Shown here: one piece after another, positions 1-22,418 of the stretch | Layout: every line of letters begins with the position of its first letter | Position numbering within the stretch: the first letter of the stretch is position 1 | Source: a virus | Lineage: Duplodnaviria; Caudoviricetes | IMG/VR virus record: IMGVR_UViG_3300048623_000062 | Span: 17,144-81,143 of that record | Strand: one strand, 5' to 3' | Length of the DNA stretch: 64,000 nt | The notes under the pieces: model-generated | Databases searched by the model: none | The model's input: the letters and a program-made list of their open reading frames with translations, nothing else | Told to the model about the DNA's origin: nothing | Program-made: the position numbers and the translations under genes

Positions 1-2489
1 ATCGAGGCGGTATTGGATGTGCCGAGACGCGCGACCTGGGCTGCGGGGAGGTTGTTGATGCCACCGACCGAGACGGGGATCAGGTTGGTGATGCCGCCGC
101 CGGTCGCGCCGGTATTGCCGCTGCTCGAGGCGCCCGAGTTGCCGCCGGTACCAGGGCGGAACGCCGTGGGGGCATTGTTGGTGTCCCCGCCGTTCTGGCC
201 GTTGTTCTGGAGGCCATCGGAGCCGCCACCGCTGAAGCTGTTCAGCGAACCTTCGGTGCCAAGAAAGCCGACGCCCCCGGTGCTGCCGGATGCGTCGTTG
301 CCCTTGCGCGAGATCGTGAAGGTGCCGCTTCCGGGACCAACGAGCGCGGTCCGACAGAAGATCCGGAATCCCGCCGAATCGAGCGTCACGCTTGAAGATC
401 CGGTGAGCGTGTCATAGAACATGTCGCGCGTGAGCGTGGAGGCGGCGGTGACGCTGACGTTGCCGTCGGAGCCATCTCCGAAGTACCCGCCGACGAGAGT
501 CGGCGTTGCAGGTACGGACGCGGTGACCGTCGATCCGCTCATGCCGAACGAGACGCCGTTGGCGTTCGAGAACACCACCGTGCCGGCGGACTGGCTCGAC
601 CCGGCGGCGCTGAGCGCCACGCCACCGCCACCGGCGGCGGTGGCGGAGAACGACGCGGTCACGATATTGTTGCTCATCCCGAACGTGATGTTGTTCGAGT
701 TCGAGAACACGACCGTGCCGGCCGTCGCCATCGTCGATCCGGCCGAGATCGCATTCGGCCCCACGCCCACCGCCGATGCGGTGATGGTCGAGCCCGACAG
801 GCCGAACGAGACGCCGTTCGAGTTCGAGAACACCACGGTGCCAGCGCCGACCGACGCCGCACCGGCGCTGATCGCCGCCGGTCCAGTCGACTGGCTGTAG
901 CTCGCGGTGACGATGGACGAGCCGGACATGCCGAACGAGACGCCGTTCGAGTTCGAGAACACGACGGTTCCCGCCGTCGCGGTCTGCGTGCCGGCCGCGA
1001 TCGCCGCGGCGCTGGCGCCGGCCGCGCTGGCCGTGACGATCGATCCGTTCATGCCGAACGAGACGTTGTTCGAATTCGAGAACACCACCGTGCCGCTGGT
1101 GAGCGTCGAGGCGCCCGCCTGGACGCCGATCGACGGCCGCACGGATGCCGTCAAGGTGGAGTTGCTGAGGCCCCAGGTGACGCCGTTCGAGTTGGCGTAC
1201 GACACGGTGCCTGCGGACTGCGTGGCCGTCCCGGCAATGACAGCGTCGAGGCCGAGCTTGGAGGCGGTCACCGTCGATCCGCTGAGGCCGAACGAGACCC
1301 CGTTCGAGTTCGAGAACACGACCGTGCCAGCGCCGACCGAGGCGGTGCCGGCGCTGATCGCCGCCGGTCCAGTCGACTGGCTGTAGCTCGCGGTGACGAT
1401 GGACGAGCCGGACATGCCGAACGAGACGCCGTTCGAGTTCGAGAACACGACGGTTCCCGCCGTCGCGGTCTGCGTGCCGGCCGCGATCGCAGTGGGGCCG
1501 AGCCGCGAGGCGGTGAGGACGCCGTTCGACAACCCGAACGTGATGTTGTTGCTGTTCGAGATCGTGATCACGCCGGTGGTGACCAGCGACGCGCTCGCGC
1601 TGATGCCGATGCCCGACGCGGTGCCGCCGGCGGTCTGCGCGGTCGCGGTGATCACCGAGCCGGACATACCGAACGAGACGTTGTTCGAGTTCGAAAACAC
1701 GATGGTGCCCGACGTTCCGGTCGACCCGGCCGCCGCGATCCCCGATGGACCGTCGTGGCTCGCGGTGACGATGGACGACCCCGACATCCCGAACGTGACG
1801 CCGTTCGAGTTCGAGAACACCACCGTGCCGGTCGTCGCAAGTTGAGACCCCGCGGAGATCGCCACCGCGCCCGAGGTGCCAGCGTCCTCGGATGTCGTCG
1901 TGAAGCCGACGTTGACCAGCGGGGTGCCCGGGTTGTTCACGGGGACGCCCGAGCGCCGCACGCGCATGAACTTCGCGACGATGACGCCGCTCGCGAGGCG
2001 GTTCGACCCCTGGAACTGGAACGGCTGCGCCCAGTCGGTCGTGCCGTCGACCGAGATCTCGACGATCAGCACGCCGCCGAAGGCCCCACCGACCTGCACC
2101 GTCTTGAACAGCCCGATGTCCGCGCTGACGTCCACGGACGCGCCCACGCCGTTCCCCGCGGGGACGGTCAGCGACGCGAACGTGGTGCCGGAGGTCGTGC
2201 CGCCGACGTTCACCGTGCTCGTGCCGCCGACGTTCACGTTGTAGCCGGAGACGCGCACGCGCAGGAACCGCGCCGCGACGTTGATGGTCGTCGAGCCGCT
2301 GTTCTGGATGCTGGCCACCGCCTGCCATCCACCACCCTGGGCGGCGTCGTTGTTGAGCTCGATGGTGATGGTGCACAGCGCGGTGCCTACGACCGTGATC
2401 GTCTTGGTGGCCCCGAACGTCGAGACATCCGTGGCGGCGCCGACGCCGTTGCCGAGCGGTACTGTGAGAGAAACGAATTGATTCGCCAT
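1..2489 (-). CDS. fibre/spike protein, 3' end runs off the window
   Basis: Read by hand from ATG 2489 (MANQFVSLTVPLGNG...), no stop before base 1, so absent from the ORF track. N-terminal domain is paralogous to 3257-4138, followed by 11 repeats of TVVFSNSNGVSFGMSGS.VTAS and a Gly-rich domain. Confidence 0.8.
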   Translation of the reverse strand, partial: MANQFVSLTVPLGNGVGAATDVSTFGATKTITVVGTALCTITIELNNDAAQGGGWQAVASIQNSGSTTINVAARFLRVRVSGYNVNVGGTSTVNVGGTTSGTTFASLTVPAGNGVGASVDVSADIGLFKTVQVGGAFGGVLIVEISVDGTTDWAQPFQFQGSNRLASGVIVAKFMRVRRSGVPVNNPGTPLVNVGFTTTSEDAGTSGAVAISAGSQLATTGTVVFSNSNGVTFGMSGSSIVTASHDGPSGIAAAGSTGTSGTIVFSNSNNVSFGMSGSVITATAQTAGGTASGIGISASASLVTTGVITISNSNNITFGLSNGVLTASRLGPTAIAAGTQTATAGTVVFSNSNGVSFGMSGSSIVTASYSQSTGPAAISAGTASVGAGTVVFSNSNGVSFGLSGSTVTASKLGLDAVIAGTATQSAGTVSYANSNGVTWGLSNSTLTASVRPSIGVQAGASTLTSGTVVFSNSNNVSFGMNGSIVTASAAGASAAAIAAGTQTATAGTVVFSNSNGVSFGMSGSSIVTASYSQSTGPAAISAGAASVGAGTVVFSNSNGVSFGLSGSTITASAVGVGPNAISAGSTMATAGTVVFSNSNNITFGMSNNIVTASFSATAAGGGGVALSAAGSSQSAGTVVFSNANGVSFGMSGSTVTASVPATPTLVGGYFGDGSDGNVSVTAASTLTRDMFYDTLTGSSSVTLDSAGFRIFCRTALVGPGSGTFTISRKGNDASGSTGGVGFLGTEGSLNSFSGGGSDGLQNNGQNGGDTNNAPTAFRPGTGGNSGASSSGNTGATGGGITNLIPVSVGGINNLPAAQVARLGTSNTAS
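862..1490. repeat. 143-bp exact direct repeat inside the fibre gene (862-1004 and 1348-1490)
   Basis: Identical sequence at offset 486. Confidence 0.9.
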
Positions 2490-2503
2490 AGATGAACTCC
2501 CTG

Positions 2504-3250
2504 TTAGACGCCGCGAACGAACCAGAACCCGGGCGCTGTCGAGTCGAAGGTGATGATCACGCCGCCGCCCGCGGGGATGACGTAGTCACCAGGCCCGAAG
2601 AACTTACCACCCGCCGTGCCGGCGTCGTTCTGATTGCGGAGGGTGAGCGTCTGGCCGCCCGCGGTGCCGATGTTCTGGATAGCGATCTGCCGCCCGTCGG
2701 GATTGGGCGACGCGATGATGATGGAGTCGATGGTCGTCCCGGCCGCGTTCGGAAAGACATCGAGTCGGGATGCGAGATTCAGCCCGGTAGCCTGACTCGG
2801 GCCGAGCTCGGCGTAGTTGGCGTTCGACGGGTTGAGCGTGGCGCTGTTGCCCAGGGTGAGCATCGTCTGCAGTACCGTGGCCGTGCCATTGATGACCGCG
2901 ATCTGCGCGGTCTCGACGATCTGCCCGGCCGTGGTCACCACGTTGCCGTTGGTGTTGGTGACGAGCAGGTTGCCCGTCGATGCGAGGTTCGAGGTGATCT
3001 GCGTGCCGGAATTCTCGAGCAGCAGGTCAGCGCCATCGGTGACGAGGTGCATCCCAGCTCCGTCGTCGCAGGTCAGCGCCATCGTGTTCCCGGCGCCGGA
3101 CGCGACCAGCGTGGTGCTCGACGCCTGCAGGAGCGCCGTCGGGACCTCGTCCGGGCCGTCCTTGCTGAGGATCAGACGCGCGGTCGAGTCGAGCACGCGC
3201 ACCGTCACGGACTCGCCGGCCACTACACGACATGCAAACGGCTTCGCCAT
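2504..3250 (-). CDS. beta-rich virion/spike-associated protein
   Basis: Thr/Gly/Asn-rich beta-strand pattern, co-oriented with fibre genes. Confidence 0.6.
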   Translation of the reverse strand: MAKPFACRVVAGESVTVRVLDSTARLILSKDGPDEVPTALLQASSTTLVASGAGNTMALTCDDGAGMHLVTDGADLLLENSGTQITSNLASTGNLLVTNTNGNVVTTAGQIVETAQIAVINGTATVLQTMLTLGNSATLNPSNANYAELGPSQATGLNLASRLDVFPNAAGTTIDSIIIASPNPDGRQIAIQNIGTAGGQTLTLRNQNDAGTAGGKFFGPGDYVIPAGGGVIITFDSTAPGFWFVRGV

Positions 3251-3256: not shown

Positions 3257-4138
3257 TCAGGTGGGGCTCGAGGTGAGGGGGGAGACGAAGAACGTGATGC
3301 GATCGCCGGCCTGGAGCTCGGCGGTCGCGATGCACACGAACTCCGTCGTGGTCTGCTGGTCTCGCGGGATGTCGAAGGCGACGATCGCCCCGACACTCTG
3401 ACAGGTGCACGTCACGCCGTAGACCGCGGTCTGCGCGGTCGGCAGCGGGATCGTGAGCTCGGACAGGTCCGGCTCCTCGCCGGTGACGATGTAGTCGAAC
3501 ACGACCAATGTCGATGTGGTACCGCCCCCGCCGCCCTCGCCGAGCGTGGTCGCGCCGACGTTGACGACGGGCAGCCCGGGGTTGATGGGCGGCACGCCCG
3601 CGCGCTTGACGCGCATGAGGCGCGCCACGACCACCGTCGATTCGGCGTTCGGCCGGTAGAACGCGAATGGCTGCGCCCACTCGTCGCCGTCGACCGATAC
3701 CTCGACGATCAGCGACCCGCGGAACGGGCCGCCGACCTGCACCGTTTTGAACAGGCCCAGCAGCGCCGAGCTCACGTCGACCGAGTCACCGACGCCGTTG
3801 CTGGCCGGCACCGGAAGTTCAACGAACGTCGCCCCGGCATCGGTCGCGCCGACGTGCACCGAGCTCGTGCCGCCGACCCGGGTGTTGTACGCGGACACGC
3901 TCGCGCGCATCCACCGCGCGGCCACGGAGACCGTGATCGATCCGCTGTTGTGGATGGTGGTCAGCGACTGCCACGACCCGAGCGTCGGATCGTCGCTGTT
4001 GTTGAACTCGATGTTGATCGCCGAGCGCGCGGTCCCGACGACCACGACGGTCTTCGTGCCGCCGAACGTCGACACGTCGACCGCGGTTCCGTTGCCGTTT
4101 CCGAGCGGAACCGGAAGCTCGGTGAAGACATTGCTCAT
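3257..4138 (-). CDS. spike-base protein paralogous to fibre N-terminus
   Basis: VPLGNGNG.AVDVSTFG.TKT ... WAQPF ... MRV.R.GVP..NPG.P.VNVG shared with the 2489 ORF; start at MSNVF. Confidence 0.75.
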   Translation of the reverse strand: MSNVFTELPVPLGNGNGTAVDVSTFGGTKTVVVVGTARSAINIEFNNSDDPTLGSWQSLTTIHNSGSITVSVAARWMRASVSAYNTRVGGTSSVHVGATDAGATFVELPVPASNGVGDSVDVSSALLGLFKTVQVGGPFRGSLIVEVSVDGDEWAQPFAFYRPNAESTVVVARLMRVKRAGVPPINPGLPVVNVGATTLGEGGGGGTTSTLVVFDYIVTGEEPDLSELTIPLPTAQTAVYGVTCTCQSVGAIVAFDIPRDQQTTTEFVCIATAELQAGDRITFFVSPLTSSPT

Positions 4139-4749
4139 ACGTGTCGCCTCCGCTGATAGAGGAGCCACAGGAACACCGCGGCCCCGCCGACGACCAACAC
4201 CGCACCGACGCCGATTCCGGCCAGCGCCAGCCAGCCGAGCGGGTCGTCGTTGTTCGTGAAGTTGCTCTCACCGGCCGCGAAGTCCGGCACCATCTTCCGA
4301 CGCACCTCCCAGTGCGTGTGGTTCGCCGAGCTCGTCACGCCGACCTGCTGGCCGGCGGCGACTCGAGCGCCCGCAGGTGCATAGGCGGCGGTCAGCGGCT
4401 CGAGGTGCGCCAGGAGGTGGAACTTGCCGCTGTCGCCCTGGATGATGATGAGCCAGGGGCCATAGCCAACGAACGGCGCGCTGTTGCCATCGGCCGTTGC
4501 GACCACCGTCCCGGATTCCGGCGCCACCACGGTCGTCCCCGCGAAGCCCGCGACGTCCACGCCAGGATGACGGCATGGGTACAGCCCGACGCCGCACGAC
4601 CCGTCCGCAGGCGTCGACCTGACCTCGAGGTAGCCGCCATGCGCGCCGACCTGGAGCGGGTAGATCGGCGGCTGCGGCCTACCTGGCGCCGGCGCGGCTG
4701 TCTCAACGGGGGTCGCCCCCAGCGCCTGCGCGGCGCGGGCGTAGGTCAC
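4135..4749 (-). CDS. M23-family peptidase with C-terminal TM anchor
   Basis: HPGVD, HLLAHL, GQQVG and HTHWEV motifs; hydrophobic tail then RRR. Confidence 0.85.
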   Translation of the reverse strand: MTYARAAQALGATPVETAAPAPGRPQPPIYPLQVGAHGGYLEVRSTPADGSCGVGLYPCRHPGVDVAGFAGTTVVAPESGTVVATADGNSAPFVGYGPWLIIIQGDSGKFHLLAHLEPLTAAYAPAGARVAAGQQVGVTSSANHTHWEVRRKMVPDFAAGESNFTNNDDPLGWLALAGIGVGAVLVVGGAAVFLWLLYQRRRHV

Positions 4750-4752
4750 GTC

Positions 4753-6819
4753 TCACCACCCGTCCCTTTCGTTGAGTACGAAGTGGAAGGTGGCACCGCG
4801 ATCGCTGATCTCGGACTCCGCGACCTCGTCGGGGTCGAGCGCGCCGATGAGGTCCGCGCGAGCGAGCACGAGCGCCCCGGTGCGGTTGAGCTCGACGAGT
4901 TTCTTCTTGAACTGGTCGTAGGTCATGCCGCCCAGCCGTGGATCGTCCTGGACGCGGCGCCAGATCGCCGAGACGAACACCTTGCTCCCGAAGCGGCCGT
5001 AGCCGCGTCCGTTGCGCTGGTCCTCGTCGGTCTTCTTGACCGCGTCGATGACCGCGTCGGCGACGCCGCCCACCGGCGCCACGACCGTCGCGGGCGCTGG
5101 ACGCTGGACCACATGCCGAGTCACCGCCGGGGCCGGCCGCGCCGGGGAGCGCCGCGCAGCCTGATTGGGTTCGTTGACCACGAAGTGGTACGTCGCGCCG
5201 CGATCGTGAATCTCCGACCCGATCACCTCATTGTGGTCCATCGCGGCAACGAGGTCCGCGCGCGCCATCGTGAGCAAACGCTGGCGATGCGCCTCGAGCA
5301 GACGCCGCTTGAACTCCTCGGCGGACATCGAGGCGAACCGAGGGTAGTCCCGGAGGTCTCTCCAGATCGCCGCGATGAACACCTTCCGATCGCCGAATCG
5401 GCCGCGCGCCTCCCCCTCGACCTCGCTCTCGTCGCCGATCCCATCGGCCGCCACGTTGACCGCCTGGGCGAACTCCTCGATGGGCATCTCGCGCCGCGCA
5501 GACCGCGCAGGAGCCGCAGCCGGCGCATGCCCGAGACGCTGGCGATATGCCGCGTACTGCAGCCGCGAGTCGCCCTCGAAGATACCGCCGGCGAGTTGCT
5601 CGTCGGTCAGCTTCACGTGCCGGCCATCCGCGCTGTCGAGGCTCAGCACTTTCTGCCGGCGCATGTCGTTCACGCCTGCGGTGAACTCCTCGTGCGAATA
5701 CTGCGGCATCGCCTTGCGCAGGTCGTAGAGCAGTACGTAGTTGTGACCCTTGTCGAGCCGACGGAACGCCGTCTCGAAGTCGCGGGCGAAGTTCGCCGCG
5801 AACGCGCCGGGGTCCGGCAACGGGTCTGGCTTCACATGCGGCCCCGGCGCGGCGAGCAACCGGTCGTACTCGGCTGCCTCGCGCTCGTGGCGTCTCATGT
5901 CTCGCAAATCCGCGCGCGTCGCCCCGGTCTTGGTCGGCCGGGGGCGAGGCGGCGGGCTCAGCACTGCGTCGGGCGGTCGCGACAGCTTGACCGTCCGCGA
6001 GGCCACGGGCGACGGCGCACGCGCGGGCGAGCGAGGCGACTTCGGCTTCGACATCCGATCCGTGTCGCGCGCGGGCCGCTTGGCGAAGATCACCTCCTTG
6101 AGGTCCTTGGCCAGCGCGCCGCCCTTGGCGAGGTATCGGTAGTGCTCGAACTCCGCCGCGGAGTTTCCGGTAAAGAACACAAACCGGTCGACGAGGTCCG
6201 GGCGATTCTCCTCCACCCAGTGAAACAGGTCGATGCCGCTCTTGTCGCCGAGCACATCCACGTCGCTCACGATGAGGCCGACCATGTGGACCTTGATATT
6301 CGCGATCGCCGCGTCCACGTTGTCCGAGACGATGACCGGCGTGCCCTTGAAGATCCGCCCGAGCATCTTCGTGGTGCCGGCCTGCAGGACCGGATCGTCC
6401 TCGAGCAGGATGATGCGATCTTGGCTGTTCGCGGCGTGGACGTCTTGCTTGGCCGGGTTCTGCACCTCGGCGCCACCATCCCAGGTCAACTCGAGTTGGC
6501 CATCGCGGGACTCGAGCTCGGCCGTGAACGTCGGCACGCGGAGCCCGGCGCCATACACCACCGAGTCCCACTCGCCACCGGCGCCCATCGCGTAGGACAC
6601 CAGGATATCGCCGACGTCCGACGGACGGAGGTCCGACGCGGATCGGTGAAGTTGATCGGCGATGCCCACGAGGCCGGTGTGGTTCACCTCCTCGTAGAGG
6701 TGCGCGAGATCCTCGGCCGCCTTGCGCGCTGGCGCCGGCGCCTTGCCGCGGGTCTGCGATACGCTCTCCCAGAGCGCCTCGCTCATCTCATTGATCAGGC
6801 CGCCCCGAGACCACGTCAT
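4753..6819 (-). CDS. multidomain protein: receiver (REC)-like domain plus repeated unknown domain
   Basis: IILLEDD...LIVSDVD...FVFFTG; two copies of FG.KVF..AIW...F...L......L..ARADL..A.D..EV..SEI.DRGAT.HFV. Confidence 0.7.
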   Translation of the reverse strand: MTWSRGGLINEMSEALWESVSQTRGKAPAPARKAAEDLAHLYEEVNHTGLVGIADQLHRSASDLRPSDVGDILVSYAMGAGGEWDSVVYGAGLRVPTFTAELESRDGQLELTWDGGAEVQNPAKQDVHAANSQDRIILLEDDPVLQAGTTKMLGRIFKGTPVIVSDNVDAAIANIKVHMVGLIVSDVDVLGDKSGIDLFHWVEENRPDLVDRFVFFTGNSAAEFEHYRYLAKGGALAKDLKEVIFAKRPARDTDRMSKPKSPRSPARAPSPVASRTVKLSRPPDAVLSPPPRPRPTKTGATRADLRDMRRHEREAAEYDRLLAAPGPHVKPDPLPDPGAFAANFARDFETAFRRLDKGHNYVLLYDLRKAMPQYSHEEFTAGVNDMRRQKVLSLDSADGRHVKLTDEQLAGGIFEGDSRLQYAAYRQRLGHAPAAAPARSARREMPIEEFAQAVNVAADGIGDESEVEGEARGRFGDRKVFIAAIWRDLRDYPRFASMSAEEFKRRLLEAHRQRLLTMARADLVAAMDHNEVIGSEIHDRGATYHFVVNEPNQAARRSPARPAPAVTRHVVQRPAPATVVAPVGGVADAVIDAVKKTDEDQRNGRGYGRFGSKVFVSAIWRRVQDDPRLGGMTYDQFKKKLVELNRTGALVLARADLIGALDPDEVAESEISDRGATFHFVLNERDGW

Positions 6820-6831: not shown

Positions 6832-7356
6832 CTAGGCGTCCATCGCCCGGTTGTTGGTGATTCCGATGCGCAGCCGGCACAGCGACACGCCGCTGTGCAG
6901 CGCGCCCGCCACGTGCCTGTCGTCGCCCATCTCCCACGCGCATTCGAACGGCTCGATCGAGAGACGCCCGATACCGCCGGCCGCCATCAAATCCGGTGAC
7001 TGCGTCGCCAGGATCGTCGTGCGCATCGGATTGACCGCCGACGGGTCGAAGTCGATCGCCTTGCGATCCCCCGGAATCCGCGACTGCTTGCGACAGCGCG
7101 GACAGATGATGTGCGCGACCAGCGGCTCGCCGGGGATGGCGTAGACATCGACCGTCAAGAACTGGTCGCCGTACACCACCACCACCTCCTGCTTGCCTGC
7201 CGTCAGGCTGGTCGTCATCGAGATCCCGGTCTCCATGTCTCCGGCAATGCGCACGACCTCGCGCTCCTTGCCACTGGCAAGCGAACCCGGCTTCACGCCC
7301 ATCATGTCTTGCACGCGCGGGTCGCGGAGGTCGATGGAGAGCGAGTTCTTGGTCAT
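6832..7356 (-). CDS. hypothetical protein (CPRC motif)
   Basis: ORF track, operon context. Confidence 0.6.
   Translation of the reverse strand: MTKNSLSIDLRDPRVQDMMGVKPGSLASGKEREVVRIAGDMETGISMTTSLTAGKQEVVVVYGDQFLTVDVYAIPGEPLVAHIICPRCRKQSRIPGDRKAIDFDPSAVNPMRTTILATQSPDLMAAGGIGRLSIEPFECAWEMGDDRHVAGALHSGVSLCRLRIGITNNRAMDA
7268..7280. promoter_or_regulatory. palindromic operator TTGCCACTGGCAA, copy 1 (intragenic)
   Basis: Perfect 13-bp palindrome, extends to 15 bp. Confidence 0.75.
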
Positions 7357-7630: not shown

Positions 7631-7643
7631 GGTGGGTGTCTCC

Positions 7644-9736: not shown

Positions 9737-9749
9737 TTGGTGCTGGTGT

Positions 9750-9869: not shown

Positions 9870-9871
9870 GA

Positions 9872-14412: not shown

Positions 14413-14414
14413 GA

Positions 14415-15140: not shown

Positions 15141-15448
15141 CGGAGAATTCTCCATGCAAGATATCCGAGCGCCGCGTACATCAGTAGCGATCGCGACGAC
15201 AGCGCTTCGTCAGACCCGTCGAGGCTCGCGACACGGCCTTGCGGCAGTTCGCCGCTGCCTACCTTCGTCGCTCCCACGGGGAGTTTCCACGACGCACGCG
15301 ACGGGGACACGCCAAAGTCGCCCTCGAGCCCCGGCCCCACAGGCTCGGGCGTCGCCTTCGACGGCGACCCGGCGTGAGTGCCGCCGGGTCCGGGCGCCTC
15401 GTAGTAGTCGTAGGCGCGCCGCGTGTAGTCGTAGACCGAGTACCGCAT
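15137..15448 (-). CDS. small TM-anchored virion protein
   Basis: MRYSVYDY...SLDG; C-terminal TM. Confidence 0.65.
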   Translation of the reverse strand: MRYSVYDYTRRAYDYYEAPGPGGTHAGSPSKATPEPVGPGLEGDFGVSPSRASWKLPVGATKVGSGELPQGRVASLDGSDEALSSRSLLMYAALGYLAWRILR

Positions 15449-15453
15449 GGGGC

Positions 15454-15801
15454 CTACCGGCGCCGCTTCTTTCCGAACATCTTCCATGCGACGAAGAGGC
15501 CAACCACGGCCAGCGTGGCCATACCGCCGGGCACCGACTCGACGATGCCGGCCAAGGCGCCACCGCCGCAGCCGCACGACCCGTGACAACTGCAGTCGCC
15601 CATCGGCGCCTGCCGCGTCACGCCGATCGGCTCGGGCGCACCGGGCGCCGGCAAGATCGTTGATCCGTCGAGCGACGTCCCCTCGAGCGAGCCGAGACCA
15701 CAGCATCCGAGCGCGGTCGCGTCGGCCGCGCGCGTCTGCTGCGGGATGCCGGTCTTCCAGTTGATGATGGAGCCACCACCGCGTTGATACGCAAACTTCA
15801 T
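15454..15801 (-). CDS. small Cys-containing TM-anchored virion protein
   Basis: GLGS and PMGD motifs; TM + KKRRR. Confidence 0.7.
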   Translation of the reverse strand: MKFAYQRGGGSIINWKTGIPQQTRAADATALGCCGLGSLEGTSLDGSTILPAPGAPEPIGVTRQAPMGDCSCHGSCGCGGGALAGIVESVPGGMATLAVVGLFVAWKMFGKKRRR

Positions 15802-16085
15802 GGGCAACCCTTCTTCTGCCCGAAGCCCTGGGCGATGGAAATTGGGACTGCGGCCACTGGCACGAGCCGACCAGCGAGCCCGTAGATGAGCGCCCAGATG
15901 ATCGACCCCGTGCGACGGTACCCGTGGTAGGTGAGCGCGATCGCGGATGCCGTCTTGACCGGCTCGCTGGTCACGGCGCGGCGCAGGCTGAACGGTTCTG
16001 GGGCGGCGTCGGCTCCGAGCCCGTTGATCCCGACCGGCGCGACCACGATGCCGCCCCCACGAGTCCTGTATCGCTGATAGCGCAT
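15798..16085 (-). CDS. small membrane protein
   Basis: MRYQRYR...NGLGAD; two hydrophobic segments. Confidence 0.65.
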   Translation of the reverse strand: MRYQRYRTRGGGIVVAPVGINGLGADAAPEPFSLRRAVTSEPVKTASAIALTYHGYRRTGSIIWALIYGLAGRLVPVAAVPISIAQGFGQKKGCP

Positions 16086-16717
16086 TACTTCCTCCCTCGC
16101 TTGCGCTTGTTCATGAGCAGGTAGCCGATGCCACCAGCCACGCCGAGCAGGGCGAGTTTTTCGATGCCGGAGAGCGCAGCCAGCGACGCCATGACGCCGG
16201 CGTCCGGTGCCACGATCGTCTTGCCGCTCTTGGTCTGGATGGTGGGCACCGAGACCGCGAGCGGCCCCGAGACCGTCGCCGGCACGCCCAGCGTATCGGC
16301 CATCGCCCGCACCTGGGCGGCCAGGACATCGACGTCGGGCGCGACGCCCATGCAGGTCGACGGGTCGCCCATCACCGAGCCGGCGGACGCCGCCTGCACG
16401 CGGCGAAACAGCGCCAGCGTCGCGGGGCCGACCGAGCCGTCCACGACGATCTTGCCGAACCCCTTGGCCTGGGCGACGCGGTTGAGTTGCCGCTGAAACT
16501 CCTGCACCACCTTGAGAGCGGGGAAGTTCATCGGCTTGCACACGCCGTTCACCGTCACGAAGTCCGCGGACGACGTGGTCGATCCGCCGTTGGCGGTCTG
16601 GTTCACGTTGTCCGACGGATCCGGCTCGACGGCCGAGAACGGTCCCAGGGCCTTGAGCAGGTCCGCGAGGCCGCCGTTGTCGTCGCCGACCGCGGAGCGA
16701 TGTGCGAGGTACGTCAT
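16085..16717 (-). CDS. peptidoglycan-binding-like domain protein, TM-anchored
   Basis: MTYLAHRSAVGDD; VQEFQRQL...VDGSVGPAT; TM + KRKRGRK. Confidence 0.7.
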   Translation of the reverse strand: MTYLAHRSAVGDDNGGLADLLKALGPFSAVEPDPSDNVNQTANGGSTTSSADFVTVNGVCKPMNFPALKVVQEFQRQLNRVAQAKGFGKIVVDGSVGPATLALFRRVQAASAGSVMGDPSTCMGVAPDVDVLAAQVRAMADTLGVPATVSGPLAVSVPTIQTKSGKTIVAPDAGVMASLAALSGIEKLALLGVAGGIGYLLMNKRKRGRK

Positions 16718-17187
16718 CGAGACCTCCGCTTCGAGAGCATGCAGTAGAGGATGTAGGCCCCGATCCCGTAGGTGACGATGCCGCCCGGAACTTCCGGCAG
16801 AAAGTCGAGCGGACCATCGACCGCAACCGGGAACGTCATCGGCTGGTAGGCCATCGCGACGGTCGGCTGGATACGGAAGCCCTTGCGCTCCGCATCGATC
16901 AGCGCCTTCACGTTGGCACCCCAGGACATTCGCTCCCAGTTCGGGCCAGCAACCTGCTCTAGAGCACGCTCAGTCGCCTCATCGAGCCGCCCGCTCACGA
17001 GCACGTCCATCGCCCCCAGCTTCCAGAGCGCTCGCTGGATCTGCTGGACGAGGATGATGATCTGGCTGGCCTTGGGGTCCGTGGTGGCCGGAGCGACCAT
17101 CATGTACGGGATGATGCCCGTAGCGTTGAAGTTCCCGACGCCGATGGCGGTCAGGAGCTCGCGCGATTCCATCGATGTCTCGCTCAT
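16714..17187 (-). CDS. peptidoglycan-binding-like domain protein, TM-anchored
   Basis: IQRALWKLG...SGRLDEATERAL; TM + KRRSR. Confidence 0.6.
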   Translation of the reverse strand: MSETSMESRELLTAIGVGNFNATGIIPYMMVAPATTDPKASQIIILVQQIQRALWKLGAMDVLVSGRLDEATERALEQVAGPNWERMSWGANVKALIDAERKGFRIQPTVAMAYQPMTFPVAVDGPLDFLPEVPGGIVTYGIGAYILYCMLSKRRSR

Positions 17188-18911
17188 GACTTCTTCTTTT
17201 TCTTGGTCAGGAGGGCCACTGCTAGCACGCCGCCGCCCGCAACCAGCACCAGCGGCAGCACTGATTTCTTAACCACGACCGGCGGCGGTGGTGGCGGCGG
17301 TGGGGCGCCGTTGCACGCGCGCGCCGCCGCGCCAGCACCGGCATTTCCGGCCGCTGCGCCCGCAGCCGGATTGCCAACATAGGCCCCGGCAACGGCCCCG
17401 GCTGCGGCGCCGACGCCTGGCGTCGAGACGAGGTCGCACGTGAGGTCGCCGACCTTGCGGACGCCATCGGCGATGGTCTTGCCAACGACATGCGAGATCG
17501 CCTGCCCGATGCCGAGCGGGTCCGCGATCTTGATGAGCGTCTGTGGAAGCTTGATGACCGTGTTGATGATCGACCCCCACGTGCTCACGTCCGGCACCTT
17601 GGACAGCCACACCCGCAACGCCTGTGGGTTCTCCGGTGACCAGTCCTTATAGTCAGTCCCAGGCCAAAAAATCATGTGCAACTGCAGGTTGTTCCCGTTG
17701 TTGGGATCCTGGAGGTATGCGACCGCCGTCCCAGGGTTGAACATATTCCTGGCCGTCAGGAGGTTCACCTTGGTTTCTGGCCCGATCCCGACTCTCGCGA
17801 GCATAGCGAGTTCTTCGGGCCGGAACGGCCGACGATGCTCGAGGTCCTTCAGGGGGCCATCCGGCTTGGTCAGCAAAAGTTCCCCGATGGCCTTCACCTG
17901 CTCATTCGTGAGCGTGCGAAGGTCGCGGGCCGCAAAATCCGGCTTGCGGCCACCTCGGTCAAGGTGCAGCGGCTGTCCCGATCCGGCGGCCACCGTAGGG
18001 CTCTGAAAGTTCATTCCGCCGATCGAGAACGTTCCCGGCGGTGGCGGTGGCTCTGAGATGCCGCCCGGCGCACCGGTGCTCTTGGTGACGGTCCACGGTG
18101 TCCCGTCCGCCTTGCATGGCATCGGATTCGGGGCCACGCCCACGCGCACACGCACGAGATACCCACCCTTCCCATCGTCGACCCAGTTGTATCCCTCGGG
18201 CGGCAGGCAGTTGAGGGCCGGCTTGGCCGGCGCTGCCGTGTCGCCCATCGCCCCTGGTGAACGCATGTAGCACCCCAGGCCCAGGGACGTACCAGCCTGG
18301 GGTGCGACGCGACGAGCGCCCTTGGTGACGAGCTCGGCCGTGACGCCAGCGGCCATCGCGCGCGCGATTGCCAGTGGCAAGGCGTCCGCGGGCGATACAC
18401 CATGCGCGAGGTAGCGACGAAAGATGTCCTGCGTCCGGTCGTACAGCGACTTGTCGATGCGGCCCATGATCCCGCGGAGCGCGGTCTCCTGCTGGGCGCG
18501 CGGCAGCGTCGAGATCTGCGACAGGATCGCCTGAGCCGCCTTGGCGCCGTAGGTCTCCACCGCGGGGGGCAGTGGCTCGTCGCCGCTCAGCGGCTGCACC
18601 GTGACTTGACGGCCGCCGCCCGGCAGCGGGCGAGCCGCGACGAGCTTCGGGCGCTGGTTCAGCCACGGCGGGATCTTGGGGCCGGAATACGACCCCGAGG
18701 GCTGCCACTTCGTGGTGAACGTGCCCTGCCCGTACCCTTCATCGTCGATGTACTGCGGCACGGCGAAGCCGCCGTTGCCGACGCGCGGGTCATCGTAGGT
18801 GCCGCGCGGCATCTGCTTGGTGATGAACGCGCGGCGCTCGAGGCCCTCGTCGTCCACGTTGTCCGGGATCGCGTACCCCGAGGACCATGGTGGTGGTAGG
18901 TTGTATGCCAT
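17184..18911 (-). CDS. large TM-anchored virion protein
   Basis: MAYNLP; internal SLGLG and AMGD; poly-Pro then TM + KKKKK. Confidence 0.7.
   Translation of the reverse strand: MAYNLPPPWSSGYAIPDNVDDEGLERRAFITKQMPRGTYDDPRVGNGGFAVPQYIDDEGYGQGTFTTKWQPSGSYSGPKIPPWLNQRPKLVAARPLPGGGRQVTVQPLSGDEPLPPAVETYGAKAAQAILSQISTLPRAQQETALRGIMGRIDKSLYDRTQDIFRRYLAHGVSPADALPLAIARAMAAGVTAELVTKGARRVAPQAGTSLGLGCYMRSPGAMGDTAAPAKPALNCLPPEGYNWVDDGKGGYLVRVRVGVAPNPMPCKADGTPWTVTKSTGAPGGISEPPPPPGTFSIGGMNFQSPTVAAGSGQPLHLDRGGRKPDFAARDLRTLTNEQVKAIGELLLTKPDGPLKDLEHRRPFRPEELAMLARVGIGPETKVNLLTARNMFNPGTAVAYLQDPNNGNNLQLHMIFWPGTDYKDWSPENPQALRVWLSKVPDVSTWGSIINTVIKLPQTLIKIADPLGIGQAISHVVGKTIADGVRKVGDLTCDLVSTPGVGAAAGAVAGAYVGNPAAGAAAGNAGAGAAARACNGAPPPPPPPPVVVKKSVLPLVLVAGGGVLAVALLTKKKKKS
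18368..18380. promoter_or_regulatory. palindromic operator TTGCCAGTGGCAA, copy 2 (intragenic)
   Basis: Perfect match. Confidence 0.75.
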
Positions 18912-18922: not shown

Positions 18923-19540
18923 TTAGGCCGCCACCGGCCAGGTCGCCCCGGCCTTGACGCGAGAGAGCATCTGCGGGGTCTTCTCTGCCGCCACGGGGTC
19001 GAGCACGATGTGCGTGCCGGTTCGCGGCTCGAGGGCGCGCGTGAACACGTGGGAGTATTGCGGTTGCCCCTGGAAGAACATCCGCTGAAACGCGACGGTG
19101 GCGAAGTCAGCTCGACCGCCAACCGCGATCACCGCAGCTGCCAGCCAGCACGCCATGTCGTCGCAGTCGAGCGACGGCCGGTGACCGGCCATGATCTGCT
19201 TGCTGATCAGGTGGGGGGCGCGCACGAGCTCGGTGCGGCGCGGGTCGCGCATGTACCGCGTGCGCTGCAGCAGGAACTGGTACAGCGCCAGATACTCGGA
19301 CGTGTAGTCTTTGCTGTCGAGCCACTCGCAAACGATCTCGGCGAGTTGCCGCGTCTCGAAGTGGTCCGCGTCGCCCAGCACGGCGCGCCGCATGACGTCG
19401 ATGGTCTGCGGCGCGCCTGCGTACCCGATGCGCGACGTCGGCGCCTGGTCCGGGAGCCAGAATAGACGCGCCCCCCCATAGCCCATCCCCGACTGGGGGA
19501 CGAGCGGGGCGAGGCGGGCGCTATTCGGGTTGGTGGGCAA
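18923..19540 (-). CDS. transglutaminase-like Cys-His-Asp enzyme, candidate maturation protease
   Basis: RYMRDP, LDCDD, SHVF and LDP motifs. Confidence 0.8.
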   Translation of the reverse strand: MPTNPNSARLAPLVPQSGMGYGGARLFWLPDQAPTSRIGYAGAPQTIDVMRRAVLGDADHFETRQLAEIVCEWLDSKDYTSEYLALYQFLLQRTRYMRDPRRTELVRAPHLISKQIMAGHRPSLDCDDMACWLAAAVIAVGGRADFATVAFQRMFFQGQPQYSHVFTRALEPRTGTHIVLDPVAAEKTPQMLSRVKAGATWPVAA

Positions 19541-19616: not shown

Positions 19617-21287
19617 TTACTCGATGAGGGCGGCCCCGACCTTGCGCAGCCAGTTCTTGCCTGACTGCGATGAGAGGGGCGATTCACCCGGCAACTGTGC
19701 CACCTTCTGCATGAATAGGTCAATACCGGCCATCTCGGGCGAGTGATGCTTGCGCAGCCATGCCAGAATGTCGGCCGGGATGGCCGAGCGCCCGCTCTGC
19801 GCCACGATCTCCGGGTCCGCGCCGCCGCCGAATGCGTTCTCGAGGAACGTGATGAGCCGCTTGAGCTCGGCCGGGTCGACCACGGGGATCTCGATGGCCT
19901 CACCGTTCACGCCCGGCACGAGTTTGGGCTTCCGGGTGACCGGGCGGAGCGTGGTTCCATCCGTCGTCTTGTATCGCTGGCCAGTGGCCTCATTGACGAT
20001 GATGCGCGGACGCGCGGGCGCCTGGGCCTGCTGCGGAGCCGCCGGCGCGGGCGCCGCCCCCTTGAACACCGAGGTCACTGCCCCGATATTCTCCGGGGTG
20101 AGCGCCCCGAAGATCTTGCCGATCGTCGAGGCATCCTCTTGATCATCGTCGCCTGCGATGACCTCTTTGAGGTTCTTGATATCCTTCATCTGCTCGAGGA
20201 GCGGCTTTTCTTTCTTCTCGCGGAGTTCCTTCACCTCGATTCTAAGCTCGGCGTTGTCGCGCTCGAGGCGCCGCACGTCCGCGTTGAGCACGCTGACCTG
20301 GACGTCGTTGGTCGCCTTCATAGAGGCGATCGCCACCTCGTGCGACTGGCGTAGCGCGGTGATCTCGCGCTCGTAGCTCTGCTTGGTGTTCATCATCTCG
20401 CGCTCGTGCGCTCGCTCGGCCGCCTCCCTCGCGCGATCGTGGCGATCCTCGGCGCGCGCGATGTCCGCGTGCGCTGCCTCCTTGAGTTGGCGCACCTCTG
20501 ATTCGTGCTGCGTGCGTAGCGCGAGCACCTGGCCGTTATTGCCGTCGATGGCGTTGGTGAGGATGCGGTCCAGCACCGGGTTCTCTGGTGGCTTCGTGTG
20601 GCGCATCTCCGATAGTTCGCGGCGCATGTCGGCGATCTCGCGCTCGCGCGAGCGCACCGTCTCCTGCATCTGCTCGAACATCATCTGAACGCTTGGGTCG
20701 ATGCCACGCGGCTCGTGGTCGTCCTTGCCGTCCTTGCGGTCGAGCAACTCCTTCATCGTATCCATCGCGATCTTCGCCATCTGCGGCGACTCGCTGTGAG
20801 AGGCGGTCCCCGGGGGTGCTATGCCCGTCTTGCCAGGGATCCGTGGCTCACCGGCGATCTTCATCGTCCGATGGGCCTTGTACTCGAACGACCCCTTGGC
20901 GTTGGGCAGCATGATGCGGAGGTTGTACTTGCCACCGCCGTGCTCGTTGCGGAGGAATTCCTCGTCGAAACGCTCCTCGTACGTGTGGAGGTATCCCTCG
21001 ATGGACACCATCTGACCCGTCGCCGGGTCGCGTACTTCCCGGGGGCTCTCTCGGCGAACGACGATGCGCATGGCGCCGCCCTTGCCGATCTCGCTGAGCC
21101 AGTCATGGAGTGACTTCTCGTCCTCGGTCTTGATGGCCTGCATGACCGGGGATAGCCGCTCGGGCGCAACCGCCGCCGGCACCGGCGCGGCCTTCCCCTT
21201 GGTGCGCTTCGCCTCCGGCGGCGACTCATCGACACCAGCTTTCAGATCATCCTCGGTCATGTCGAGCGCGGCGACTTCCTTCATCAC
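19617..21287 (-). CDS. long coiled-coil protein
   Basis: Central about 170 aa of E/R/K heptads. Confidence 0.75.
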   Translation of the reverse strand: MMKEVAALDMTEDDLKAGVDESPPEAKRTKGKAAPVPAAVAPERLSPVMQAIKTEDEKSLHDWLSEIGKGGAMRIVVRRESPREVRDPATGQMVSIEGYLHTYEERFDEEFLRNEHGGGKYNLRIMLPNAKGSFEYKAHRTMKIAGEPRIPGKTGIAPPGTASHSESPQMAKIAMDTMKELLDRKDGKDDHEPRGIDPSVQMMFEQMQETVRSREREIADMRRELSEMRHTKPPENPVLDRILTNAIDGNNGQVLALRTQHESEVRQLKEAAHADIARAEDRHDRAREAAERAHEREMMNTKQSYEREITALRQSHEVAIASMKATNDVQVSVLNADVRRLERDNAELRIEVKELREKKEKPLLEQMKDIKNLKEVIAGDDDQEDASTIGKIFGALTPENIGAVTSVFKGAAPAPAAPQQAQAPARPRIIVNEATGQRYKTTDGTTLRPVTRKPKLVPGVNGEAIEIPVVDPAELKRLITFLENAFGGGADPEIVAQSGRSAIPADILAWLRKHHSPEMAGIDLFMQKVAQLPGESPLSSQSGKNWLRKVGAALIE

Positions 21288-21706
21288 TTCGACTCCTTGT
21301 CGTCCTCGGACTCTTGGTCTTCGTCCTCGTCCTCATCGGGAACGGTGATCTCGCCGAGCACGTTGCTGCCGTCCTCGCACAACTCGCGGAACTTGGAGAT
21401 CGCCTCGAGCACCTTCGGTTCGCCGGTCGCGCGCTTCTCGAGCTCGGTCGCCAGCACGAGGCCAGTGGTGATGATGCTCGCGAACGTGTCAGCTGTGTCC
21501 TCGTGGAGCGTGTCCGGCGCGCCATCCATGAGGTCGGCCACGGCTTCGTCGACCTCGCCGAACTCCTCGACGAGCGACTCGAGCCACGGCAGCAGATCGC
21601 TCGAGAAGAACGACACGACGTCATTCGCCGTGGTCAACTTCCCGGCGAAGCCCTTGGCTTTGCCGACGATCTCCTTCAGGTCACTCTTCAGTTGTACGGT
21701 GCTCAT
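21284..21706 (-). CDS. acidic helical hypothetical protein
   Basis: ORF track, SD-like GGAG upstream. Confidence 0.7.
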   Translation of the reverse strand: MSTVQLKSDLKEIVGKAKGFAGKLTTANDVVSFFSSDLLPWLESLVEEFGEVDEAVADLMDGAPDTLHEDTADTFASIITTGLVLATELEKRATGEPKVLEAISKFRELCEDGSNVLGEITVPDEDEDEDQESEDDKESK

Positions 21707-22418
21707 TTGTCTCCCTGGTGCTCGGTAGCGGTTCGTTGTTGAGGATCATCTCGCGAATGCGCGCTCGCGCGTGCGCGGCAGCTGCGGCGTGGGCGGCGTT
21801 GTGACTCGAGTTGTGAAATTTCCGGTCCGGGAACTGATCGCACCAGGCGCACCGCATGGACGGCGCATCGTAGTCATCGTCTCGACCAGATATCGTCGAC
21901 GAGAACGTGCAGAGCGCGAATTCCGCCTCGACCTGTGCGTCGAGAATCAGCCGCTCCGCTTCCTCGGCTTCACGCATGGCTTTGCGCCGGCGCCCCTCCC
22001 ACCGCGCGACCTGGTACGCAAAGTCACCCCCATCCTTGGACTGCCGGTAGGCGCGTTCGCGCTTCCTGCGCCCCTCGTCCGGCGCCACCGGTTCCCACCG
22101 GTTGCACTCCGTTACCGGCATCACCCCCAGCGGCATCTCGATGCCAGTGTCCGGGTAGCAATAGCGGTGCGTCTCGGCGTGGAACGGCACTGGGGGCTGG
22201 TAGGTGCCCCCCCCAACCCCCGGAACGATCACAGGTAGGCGCCTCACTTTGGGGGGTTCGGCGTCGACCTGAATGCGGAACCGGTGGTAGTGGCGGCATG
22301 GCCCCGCCTCGCACAGGCTCGGGCGAGGGTCCGGGGGCGGACGCTGGGCCGTGAGCGACGCAGGAGCGTCGAGGTCGACCCCGTGGGAGGGGTCCGTGGG
22401 GGCGGTAATTGTGCGCAT
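21681..22418 (-). CDS. hypothetical protein with Cys/His motifs
   Basis: First gene of the minus-strand module. Confidence 0.6.
   Translation of the reverse strand: MRTITAPTDPSHGVDLDAPASLTAQRPPPDPRPSLCEAGPCRHYHRFRIQVDAEPPKVRRLPVIVPGVGGGTYQPPVPFHAETHRYCYPDTGIEMPLGVMPVTECNRWEPVAPDEGRRKRERAYRQSKDGGDFAYQVARWEGRRRKAMREAEEAERLILDAQVEAEFALCTFSSTISGRDDDYDAPSMRCAWCDQFPDRKFHNSSHNAAHAAAAAHARARIREMILNNEPLPSTRETNEHRTTEE

What the first reader, a model, noticed from the sequence alone, without database searches (positions are those of the whole stretch)
1..22418. Unusually large, temperate-looking tailless membrane virus with two single-jelly-roll capsid candidates
Seen: two adjacent about 200-aa beta-rich soluble proteins, more than 12 TM-anchored small proteins, fibres, and no terminase, portal, tail or HK97 capsid. 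An integrase, ParB-like and initiator genes are also present. Known: Halopanivirales (P23-77, SH1) use two single-jelly-roll capsid proteins and an inner membrane, with genomes of about 17-31 kb. Inference: a related lineage of at least 64 kb infecting a high-GC Gram-negative host; a Myxococcota-like host is only a guess from the signalling genes and Cys-rich lipoproteins.
Basis: partly seen in the sequence, partly recalled or inferred. Interest (0 to 1): 0.78.

Follow-up and report, generated by a model that had tools for sequence, protein, structure and literature searches.

The report
Large tailless soil virus, jelly-roll capsid
This is the virion gene block of a complete 81-kb soil virus that has jelly-roll capsid-type proteins, many membrane proteins and a protamine-like DNA binder but no DNA-packaging motor, so it probably belongs to an undescribed, widespread group of large tailless bacterial viruses.

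Summary
The core observation holds. On the minus strand of 1-22418 lie two adjacent small beta-rich proteins (10326-10949, 11086-11661), at least 13 membrane-anchored proteins, fibre genes, an M23 peptidase and a transglutaminase-like protease.

- **Genome:** the window is part of a single 81,143-bp record that closes on itself, so the genome is complete.
- **What is missing:** it has no terminase, portal, HK97 capsid or tail gene, and no Walker-A NTPase at all.
- **11086-11661:** the most conserved gene, but it folded poorly (pLDDT 56). Its jelly-roll assignment is only suggestive.
- **Core protein:** the gene just upstream (11787-13097) encodes a 228-residue polybasic domain (+103 net charge) fused to a membrane region.
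- **Conservation:** this trio of genes is conserved in complete relatives of 79-179 kb.

The reading as a tailless membrane virus is supported. Kinship with Halopanivirales is not, because their packaging ATPase is absent; the architecture looks more like a portoglobovirus. The ParB, initiator, temperate and Myxococcota-host claims were not confirmed. This scan reached the same reading earlier on another genome (e1-5345316).

The parts
1..2489 (-). N-terminal 829 aa of a 943-aa fibre/spike protein. The gene starts at 2489 and runs past the window start. It has two tandem ~95-aa beta domains, then about 43-aa Gly/Ser/Asn-rich repeats.
   Evidence: Translation. 129-nt tandem repeats, 5.4 copies. 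N-terminus is 62% identical to 3257-4138. Conserved in relatives at 34-63%. No Pfam or PHROG hit.
2504..3223 (-). 239-aa Thr/Gly/Asn-rich protein between the two fibre genes. Function unknown.
   Evidence: Matched only in the near-identical genome among the loci compared.
3257..4138 (-). Second, shorter spike/fibre protein (293 aa). It shares the N-terminal tandem beta-domain module with the long fibre.
   Evidence: BLASTP 61.7% identity over 196 columns to the 943-aa ORF. Conserved at 32-59% in relatives.
4135..4749 (-). M23 peptidoglycan peptidase with a C-terminal membrane anchor. Candidate virion-borne cell-wall enzyme.
   Evidence: Pfam Peptidase_M23 E 1.5e-12, above the cut-off. TM at residues 179-197, then a basic tail. 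The same gene is in the same place in a relative (L041).
4753..6819 (-). 688-aa protein with a weak receiver-like domain and two C-terminal repeats. Role unknown.
   Evidence: Pfam Response_reg E 3.7e-4, below the cut-off. No PHROG hit.
6832..7356 (-). Conserved 174-aa soluble protein of the virion block. Function unknown.
   Evidence: Conserved at 26-57% in most relatives. No family hit.
7367..10261 (-). Run of small tail-anchored membrane proteins: 7367-7630, 7644-8045, 8045-8386, an ORF inside 9132-9590, 9419-9736 and 9872-10261.
   Evidence: C-terminal hydrophobic helix followed by K/R residues.
10326..10949 (-). Jelly-roll capsid-type protein: N-terminal helix (residues 5-37) plus an eight-strand beta sandwich.
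11086..11661 (-). Most conserved protein of the element; candidate major capsid protein.
11787..13097 (-). Protamine-like core protein. It has a 228-aa polybasic N-terminus (104 K/R, 1 D/E), then a hydrophobic region and acidic repeats.
   Evidence: Translation. The feature is conserved while the sequence is not, in L006 (+129 net charge) and L021 (+160). It always lies just upstream of the 11086-11661 homologue.
13373..17187 (-). Further membrane proteins and one soluble conserved protein (13888-14412). Two of them (16085-16717, 16714-17187) have weak peptidoglycan-binding signatures.
   Evidence: TM scan. Weak PG_binding hits at E 0.008-0.13. Conservation.
17184..18911 (-). 575-aa tail-anchored protein with a Pro/Ala/Gly-rich stalk.
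   Evidence: TM at 545-563, then a K-rich tail. Conserved at 24-54%. No family hit.
18923..19540 (-). Transglutaminase-fold (Cys-His-Asp) enzyme. Candidate virion maturation protease.
   Evidence: ESM Atlas feature search score 0.97, 201 of 256 shared features, with Transglut_core clusters. Second most conserved protein (42-77%). Also in the 179-kb relative (36%, E 6.5e-29). Pfam itself gave nothing.
19617..21706 (-). 556-aa coiled-coil protein and a 140-aa acidic protein. Candidate scaffold or size-determining proteins (inferred).
   Evidence: Only weak coiled-coil Pfam hits. Conserved at 24-47%.
21681..22418 (-). 245-aa ORF with a low coding score. It may not be a real gene.
   Evidence: Coding score 10.1, against 40-130 for its neighbours. 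No homologue in the related loci except the near-identical genome.
36722..37432 (+). Diverged paralogue of 11086-11661 with the same N- and C-termini and a changed middle. Possible vertex protein (inferred).
   Evidence: BLASTP 44% over 78 residues. hmmsearch with A4 gave 8e-59, but this protein is itself a row of A4, so that score is not independent. Orthologues in complete relatives: 87%, 33% and 34%.
40540..41454 (-). Endolysin: GH25 muramidase plus a peptidoglycan-binding domain.
   Evidence: Pfam Glyco_hydro_25 2.6e-11 and PG_binding_1 3.5e-11.
42715..43623 (-). Tyrosine recombinase.
   Evidence: Pfam Phage_integrase 1.6e-14. Best NCBIfam model is XerC, 3.5e-16.

Best explanation
Window 1-22418 is the virion-morphogenesis operon of a complete, circular or circularly permuted 81-kb double-stranded DNA virus of a soil bacterium. 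The virus has no tail and no packaging motor.

The proposed mechanism is inferred except where marked.
- **DNA condensation:** the genome is condensed by about 1,500 copies of a protamine-like protein. Its polybasic half neutralises the DNA and its hydrophobic half ties the nucleoprotein to a lipid vesicle.
- **Membrane:** the vesicle is studded with a dozen or more tail-anchored viral membrane proteins.
- **Shell:** a protein shell of vertical single jelly-roll proteins closes around the membrane. The protein at 11086-11661 is probably the main building block. The protein at 10326-10949 is a second capsomer or vertex protein. The paralogue at 36722-37432 is a further candidate vertex protein.
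- **Spikes:** two spike or fibre proteins share one N-terminal module and would plug into the shell.
- **Maturation:** a transglutaminase-fold protease would trim virion precursors.
- **Entry and exit:** a membrane-anchored M23 peptidase and proteins with peptidoglycan-binding motifs would open the wall on entry. A GH25 endolysin would act on exit.

Shown here:
- the gene content and the completeness of the genome;
- the absence of any known packaging ATPase;
- the jelly-roll fold of 10326-10949;
- the polybasic protein;
- conservation of the trio in relatives of 79-179 kb.
For: **Complete genome**
- The record is one 81,143-bp contig. Its ends overlap by 9 nt and an ORF runs across the join.
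- In a relative (G006; 87-91% DNA identity over the contig-end regions, 86-100% protein identity across the virion block) of 86,414 bp with direct terminal repeats and 100% CheckV completeness, the two ends map side by side and collinearly.

**No motor**
- No G/AxxxxGK[ST] motif occurs in any credible ORF.
- No terminase, portal, HK97 or tail family appears among the families listed by Pfam, PHROGs or NCBIfam. Six-frame searches agree.
- Five distant relatives, two of them complete at 179 kb and 125 kb, also lack Terminase_6N.
- The only P-loop protein in the 179-kb genome is DnaB-like.

**Jelly roll**

**Conservation**
- 11086-11661 is the most conserved gene.
- The order polybasic protein, then 11086-11661, then 10326-10949 is kept in a 179-kb relative that is only 32% identical.

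**Polybasic protein**
- Net charge is +103, +129 and +160 in three lineages, while the sequence itself is not conserved.

**Membrane proteins:**

**Bacterial host**
- GH25 with PG_binding_1, and an M23 peptidase.
- Shine-Dalgarno motifs precede 47 of 118 starts, against 8% at random positions.

**Not a plasmid transfer system:** no relaxase appeared among the listed families and there is no ATPase of any kind.

**Independent element:** relatives always lie on their own 55-180 kb contigs, and several have terminal repeats.
Against: - No particle has been seen; everything rests on sequence and prediction.
- The 10326-10949 profile also touches repeats in large bacterial surface proteins (E 7e-10 and 1.4e-8). 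The domain is therefore not capsid-specific.
- The two proteins show no detectable homology to each other.
- The family overviews list only the top 25 families each. Weak PHROG hits between 6e-8 and 1e-3 were not all seen.
Confidence: 0.6

Rival explanations
1. It is a true member or sister of Halopanivirales/Helvetiavirae (P23-77, SH1 and similar). Two vertical single jelly-roll capsid proteins would form heteromeric capsomers and the DNA would be pumped in by an ATPase.
For: - Two adjacent small beta-rich genes lie in a membrane-protein block.
Against: - The FtsK/HerA packaging ATPase, which originally united these viruses (PMC8812541), is absent from a complete genome and from a complete 179-kb relative.
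- The genome is 81 kb, against 16-31 kb.
- The best match is SPV1, not a helvetiavirus.
- A protamine-like core protein sits where those viruses have the ATPase gene.
Confidence: 0.07
2. It is a membrane-bound virus without an icosahedral shell, either pleomorphic or enveloped. The nucleoprotein would bud into a vesicle, and the two beta proteins would be matrix, spike or nucleocapsid-associated proteins rather than a capsid lattice.
For: - Many membrane proteins, a DNA-condensing protein with a membrane anchor, and no packaging motor.
- Jelly rolls also serve as spikes, and fibre and cement proteins appear among the matches.
Against: - The best structural matches are lattice-forming capsid proteins.
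- The extreme conservation of 11086-11661 is typical of a lattice protein under packing constraints.
- Known pleomorphic prokaryotic viruses have genomes several times smaller (general knowledge).
Confidence: 0.15
3. It is a tailed phage whose HK97 capsid, portal and terminase are too diverged to recognise. The two small jelly rolls would be head decoration or cement proteins.
For: - Atlas clusters of both proteins are labelled mostly Uroviricota, but this is an automatic label.
- Several large ORFs have no assignment.
Against: - No ORF in a complete genome has a Walker A motif, which terminase large subunits almost always carry.
- There was no hit to any head, portal, tail or tape-measure family in three libraries or in six-frame searches.
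- The same holds in a 179-kb relative.
- Tail-anchored membrane proteins and a protamine-like protein are not features of tailed-phage head modules.
Confidence: 0.07
4. It is not a virus. It would be a large plasmid-like element whose operon encodes cell-envelope or secreted proteins, or a vesicle-mediated transfer system.
For: - A Xer-like recombinase.
- A dispersed 13-bp palindrome that could be a partition or operator site.
- Sugar-nucleotide and glycosyltransferase genes.
- No hallmark virus gene by sequence.
Against: - No conjugation or replication ATPase at all.
- An endolysin plus a membrane-anchored M23 peptidase, fibres with a beta-helix depolymerase-like gene, and a DNA-condensing protein.
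- A tight genome size class of 79-86 kb with terminal repeats in several assemblies.
- A capsid-type jelly roll.
Confidence: 0.08

Closest known systems
Portogloboviridae (Sulfolobus polyhedral virus 1)
   Same: - No genome-packaging ATPase and no polymerase.
- Circular dsDNA.
- Many small membrane proteins.
- DNA held as a nucleoprotein by a dedicated basic protein inside a lipid layer under a shell of single jelly-roll proteins (SPV1 facts from PMC8459092 and PMC8812541).
   Different: - No sequence similarity.
- Genome of 81 kb (relatives up to 179 kb), against 20 kb.
- Bacterial-type lysis genes instead of a hyperthermophilic archaeal host.
- The DNA binder is a 228-residue protamine-like domain fused to a membrane region, not a small VP1-type protein.
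- It has fibres, a protease and peptidoglycan enzymes that SPV1 lacks.
Helvetiavirae / Halopanivirales (P23-77, SH1, HHIV-2, HCIV-1)
   Same: - Two adjacent small capsid-type genes within a block of membrane-protein genes.
- P23-77 shows that bacteria can host this virus type.
   Different: - The FtsK/HerA packaging ATPase is absent.
- The genome is 3-5 times larger.
- The two proteins here are not detectably related to each other.
- The polybasic core protein has no counterpart in those viruses.
Adenovirus-type core (protein VII/mu with the adenain protease)
   Same: - An arginine-rich DNA-condensing protein is encoded next to capsid genes.
- A cysteine-protease-fold enzyme is in the same module.
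- Many virion proteins start with a short leader ending in a Gly-rich motif. This is an analogy of function only.
   Different: - No double jelly-roll hexon was found.
- Adenoviruses have a packaging ATPase.
- The protease fold is transglutaminase-like, not adenain.
- Cleavage has not been shown.
FLiP and other packaging-ATPase-less jelly-roll viruses
   Same: Tailless, internal membrane, jelly-roll capsid, no packaging ATPase (PMC8812541).
   Different: Those have double jelly-roll capsid proteins and small genomes (FLiP is ssDNA). No fused, longer form of 11086-11661 was found here (weak evidence).

Membership tests
Helvetiavirae / Halopanivirales | FtsK/HerA-superfamily genome-packaging ATPase encoded with the capsid genes | tested here: not met
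   No Walker A (G/AxxxxGK[ST]) in any credible ORF of the complete genome. No ATPase family in the Pfam, PHROGs or NCBIfam overviews. The gene upstream of the capsid pair is a polybasic protein instead.
Helvetiavirae / Halopanivirales | Two vertical single jelly-roll major capsid proteins | tested here: inconclusive
   [not shown]
Helvetiavirae / Halopanivirales | Genome of about 16-31 kb | tested here: not met
   Complete genome of 81.1 kb. Relatives with terminal repeats are 79-179 kb.
Portogloboviridae | Capsid protein with the SPV1 VP4-type single jelly-roll fold | tested here: met
   [not shown]
Portogloboviridae | No packaging ATPase; DNA condensed as a nucleoprotein core by a virus-encoded basic protein | tested here: met
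   Absence of an ATPase is shown. A conserved polybasic protein of net charge +103 is encoded beside the capsid genes. That it actually condenses the DNA is inferred.
Portogloboviridae | Hyperthermophilic archaeal host (Saccharolobus); about 20-kb genome; sequence-level kinship of virion proteins | tested here: not met
   GH25 with PG_binding endolysin and an M23 peptidase. Soil, root and leaf-litter samples. Genome of 81 kb. No hit of either profile to any solved structure by sequence.
Portogloboviridae | Internal lipid layer under an icosahedral shell | not testable with these tools
   At least 13 tail-anchored membrane proteins in the operon are consistent with it, but no particle data exist.
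Duplodnaviria (tailed phages) | HK97-fold capsid protein, portal and terminase large subunit | tested here: not met
   No such family appears among the families listed (top 25 per library) for 122 ORFs. The individually scanned large ORFs also gave none. Six-frame searches for Terminase_6N and Phage_capsid gave 0 at E<=1. No Walker A motif. Folds of unassigned large ORFs were not predicted, so an extremely diverged set is not strictly excluded.
Bamfordvirae (PRD1/PM2-type) | [quoted passage not shown] | tested here: inconclusive
   [not shown]

The most novel reading that the evidence does not exclude
These 79-179 kb soil elements are a deep, undescribed lineage (family to kingdom rank) of bacterial viruses. 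They would build an SPV1-like shell of single jelly-roll proteins over an internal membrane. They would package the largest genomes known for this architecture without any motor, by condensing DNA on a membrane-tethered protamine-like protein. That would carry the portoglobovirus body plan from hyperthermophilic archaea into common soil bacteria. It would also show that motor-free packaging scales to at least 180 kb.
Probability: 0.45. Interest if true: 0.9.

Novelty: new variant of a known kind. Interest (0 to 1): 0.8.

Why it matters
- **Size:** known tailless, membrane-containing prokaryotic viruses have genomes under about 35 kb. Those without a packaging ATPase are smaller still (SPV1 at 20 kb, FLiP at 9 kb).
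- **Spread:** this group has hundreds of homologue clusters in soil, rhizosphere, litter and freshwater data, and complete genomes of 79-179 kb.
- **Biology:** a jelly-roll capsid-type protein and a protamine-like core protein with no motor would extend that body plan four- to nine-fold in genome size and into bacteria.
- **Evolution:** it would give a testable case for how large DNA can be encapsidated by condensation rather than pumping. It also bears on whether portoglobovirus-like viruses are ancestral to the two-capsid-protein viruses.
- **Practice:** such genomes are currently labelled as tailed phages by default, or mis-binned into bacterial genomes of many phyla.

Tried and rejected
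- **Complex prediction** of 11086-11661 with 10326-10949 gave no verdict (score 0.00, controls not run). It says nothing either way.
- **Profile-profile comparison** of the two families found no relationship (probability 0.3%).
- **Profile searches against all solved-structure sequences** returned only coiled-coil noise for A3 and chance hits for A2. The spike protein 3257-4138 also gave nothing.
- **tblastn of 11086-11661 against 50,697 GenBank phage records** found no match.
- **Foldseek against the PDB** gave no match at E<=0.001 for either model.
- **BFVD matches** were unnamed or uninformative. The Atlas shape search returned only unnamed viral clusters.
- **DUF7592:** one homologue carried a sub-threshold hit, but a six-frame search of this genome found nothing. 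The lead was dropped.
- **Search for longer, fused forms** of 11086-11661 found none (weak).
- **The junction-spanning ORF** was not found in five binned genomes. Circular closure was shown by DNA collinearity instead.
- **tRNA scan** found none, so there was no tRNA-based att lead.
- **My first gene call** took the plus-strand ORFs at 421-2244 seriously. They are shadows of the minus-strand fibre gene, which has homologues.
- **The ORF at 8383-9132** looks non-coding in every frame I read.
- **Run shares under 0.2** in the sequencing-run table were not used for habitat.

Full report
**What is there**

The window is positions 17144-81143 of a record made of a single 81,143-bp contig. GC content is 62-69%, so raw ORF lists are full of shadow frames. 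I called genes by codon-position GC.

From 22418 down to the window start, and on into the 17 kb upstream, almost everything is on the minus strand in a tight operon. Many genes overlap by 4 nt. Shine-Dalgarno-like motifs precede 47 of 118 starts, against 8% at random positions.

10326-10949 is 207 aa with GC3 0.89. 11086-11661 is 191 aa with GC3 0.94.

Around them are at least 13 proteins with a hydrophobic anchor. Most have a C-terminal helix followed by lysines and arginines. Other genes in the block:
- A 943-aa fibre gene with 129-nt tandem repeats.
- A shorter spike gene sharing its first 194 residues with the fibre at 62% identity.
- An M23 peptidase with a membrane anchor (Pfam 1.5e-12).

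**The genome is complete and has no packaging motor**

The contig ends overlap by 9 nt (CTTGCAAGC). An ORF with coding-like composition runs across the join. In a relative (G006; 87-91% DNA identity over the contig-end regions, 86-100% protein identity across the virion block) of 86,414 bp, with direct terminal repeats and 100% CheckV completeness, the end and the start of my contig map next to each other and in order.

Scans of 122 ORFs covered the whole circle.
- Pfam gave 28 families.
- PHROGs gave 51 families.
- NCBIfam gave 39 families.
- The listed families are sugar-nucleotide enzymes, methyltransferases, DUF5131, DUF1643, GP88, a tyrosine recombinase, an endolysin and a TnpB-like protein.
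- None is a terminase, portal, HK97 capsid, tail or packaging ATPase.
- Individual scans of the large ORFs agree.
- Six-frame searches for Terminase_6N and the HK97 Phage_capsid family gave nothing at E<=1.

Most tellingly, no credible ORF in the genome contains a Walker A motif. This excludes ordinary terminases, FtsK/HerA-type packaging ATPases, conjugation ATPases and helicases together.

**The two beta proteins**

*10326-10949.* It has 70 homologues among 50%-identity cluster representatives. With that alignment AlphaFold2 gives pLDDT 95.1: a long N-terminal helix (residues 5-37) and an eight-strand sandwich.
- Foldseek alone finds nothing significant.
- Caveats: nucleoplasmin, a monooxygenase and phage cement proteins come within about one Z unit. 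The sequence profile also touches repeats in two large bacterial surface proteins.

*11086-11661.* It is the best-conserved gene. It has 668 homologues, at least 74% identical among the top 120, on contigs that repeatedly top out at 78-88 kb. That conservation made the alignment shallow (Neff 1.6), and the model is poor (pLDDT 56).
- I treat its fold as suggested, not shown.
- The two proteins are not detectably related to each other.
- The complex prediction gave no verdict.
- A diverged paralogue of 11086-11661 lies at 36722-37432. It keeps the same N- and C-termini and is conserved in complete relatives.

**A protamine-like protein directly upstream**

The ORF at 11787-13097 begins with 228 residues that include 104 Lys/Arg and one acidic residue. 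A hydrophobic region and acidic repeats follow.

The orthologue in a 70%-related genome is lysine-rich instead of arginine-rich, with net charge +129. In a 179-kb relative the basic part is 451 residues, with net charge +160. The property is conserved while the sequence is not, so this is a real protein under selection for charge. About 1,500 copies would neutralise the genome (arithmetic only).

**A conserved module in a wide group**

Related loci were found in nine binned genomes and fifteen IMG/VR records.
- The bins carry eight or nine phylum-level labels, among them Peribacteria, Actinomycetota, Myxococcota, Gemmatimonadota, Chloroflexota, Alphaproteobacteria and Planctomycetota.
- The element is always on its own contig, so the bins say nothing reliable about the host.
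- Records of 78.8, 82.4, 86.3, 86.4, 125 and 179.4 kb have terminal repeats.

I fetched the whole 179-kb genome.
- Its only P-loop protein is DnaB-like.
- It has no Terminase_6N.
- It keeps the polybasic protein, the 11086-11661 homologue (32% identity) and the 10326-10949 homologue (hmmsearch 1.9e-21) side by side, along with the transglutaminase-like enzyme.

The transglutaminase-like enzyme (18923-19540) is the second most conserved gene. The Atlas feature search assigns it to Transglut_core clusters at score 0.97, although Pfam itself is silent.

Near-identical DNA occurs in soil and root metagenomes. Partial matches (24-44% of the sampled words) occur in rhizosphere, leaf-litter and other soil metagenomes.

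**Reading**

The simplest account is a tailless virus with an internal membrane. The shell would be built from single jelly-roll proteins. The DNA would be condensed by a membrane-tethered basic protein rather than pumped in by a motor.

This is the plan of Sulfolobus polyhedral virus 1. [quoted passage not shown] Here the plan appears in a bacterial setting, shown by the GH25/PG_binding endolysin and the M23 peptidase, and at four to nine times the genome size.

It is not a member of that family. There is no sequence similarity, the host domain differs, and the DNA-binding protein is of a different kind.

It is also not a helvetiavirus as proposed. The defining ATPase was tested for and is absent.

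The 'temperate' label is weak:
- The recombinase scores best as XerC/XerD.
- ParB_N was not found.
- No integrated copy turned up.

**Literature and earlier notes**

Four full-text searches found no description of such a group. The library covers only open-access papers and preprints, so this is not proof of novelty. An earlier agent of this scan reached the same reading on another, 86-kb genome (e1-5345316). I arrived at the trio and the missing motor before reading that note.

**Limits**
- There are no particle data.
- The presumed main capsid protein is poorly modelled.
- The structural scores are in the grey zone.
- The family overviews list only the top 25 families each.

Noticed in passing
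window 7268-57724 (ten sites): The 13-bp palindrome TTGCCA(C/G)TGGCAA occurs ten times in the window at roughly 5-kb spacing, where none is expected by chance. The spacing looks regular enough for an operator, partition or packaging-related site.
   Followed up: partly
window 57926-59887 (-): A 653-aa TnpB/Cas12-like protein (Pfam Cas12f1-like_TNB 1.7e-4; NCBIfam IS607 TnpB 5.2e-9). A weak homologue is also present in the 179-kb relative.
   Followed up: partly
L001 6293-16732 (contig 6293-16732, just upstream of the window): On the same strand as the fibre genes lie a dTDP-glucose 4,6-dehydratase (TIGR01181 5.9e-67), weak glycosyltransferase hits, a MobA-like nucleotidyltransferase and a SEC-C-motif protein. 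This could be a virus-encoded glycosylation set for the Ser/Thr/Asn-rich fibres or for host surface change.
   Followed up: partly
window 4135-19540: Many virion membrane proteins begin M-x-Y and have a small Gly-rich motif (such as GIGD, AVGD, GMGD, GVGD) within the first 20 residues. The same operon holds the transglutaminase-fold enzyme. This suggests leader removal by a maturation protease, but cleavage is untested.
   Followed up: partly
window 10950-11085 and 11662-11786: The gene 11086-11661 is bracketed by the longest intergenic gaps of the operon (136 and 125 nt), each with several GC-rich hairpins. Only the upstream gap folds clearly better than shuffles (z -2.5, against -1.25). This may be mRNA processing or stabilisation to raise the yield of this one protein.
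   Followed up: partly
window 62019-63425 (-): A 468-aa protein with right-handed beta-helix / pectate-lyase-like signatures (Pfam E 8.6e-6 and 1.8e-5, both just under their cut-offs). This is a depolymerase-type spike candidate encoded far from the main fibre genes. It is adjacent to them across the circular junction region.
   Followed up: no
window 22419-33000: This stretch has lower GC (0.62-0.65), poor coding scores and several gaps of 0.7-2.7 kb without a convincing ORF. Another reader reports repeated structured elements here. I did not analyse it.
   Followed up: no
window 4753-6819 (-): The 688-aa protein has a sub-threshold receiver-domain match (E 3.7e-4). It also has two roughly 90-residue C-terminal repeats ending in a shared ...SEI.DRGAT.HFV.NE motif. 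It is an odd component for a virion operon.
   Followed up: no
G007 (L032-L040), whole 179,401-bp relative: Across the three lineages compared, the basic domain of the core protein is longest in the largest genome: net charge +103 at 81 kb, +129 at 80.6 kb and +160 at 179 kb. With only three points, one of them out of step, the trend is suggestive at most.
   Followed up: partly
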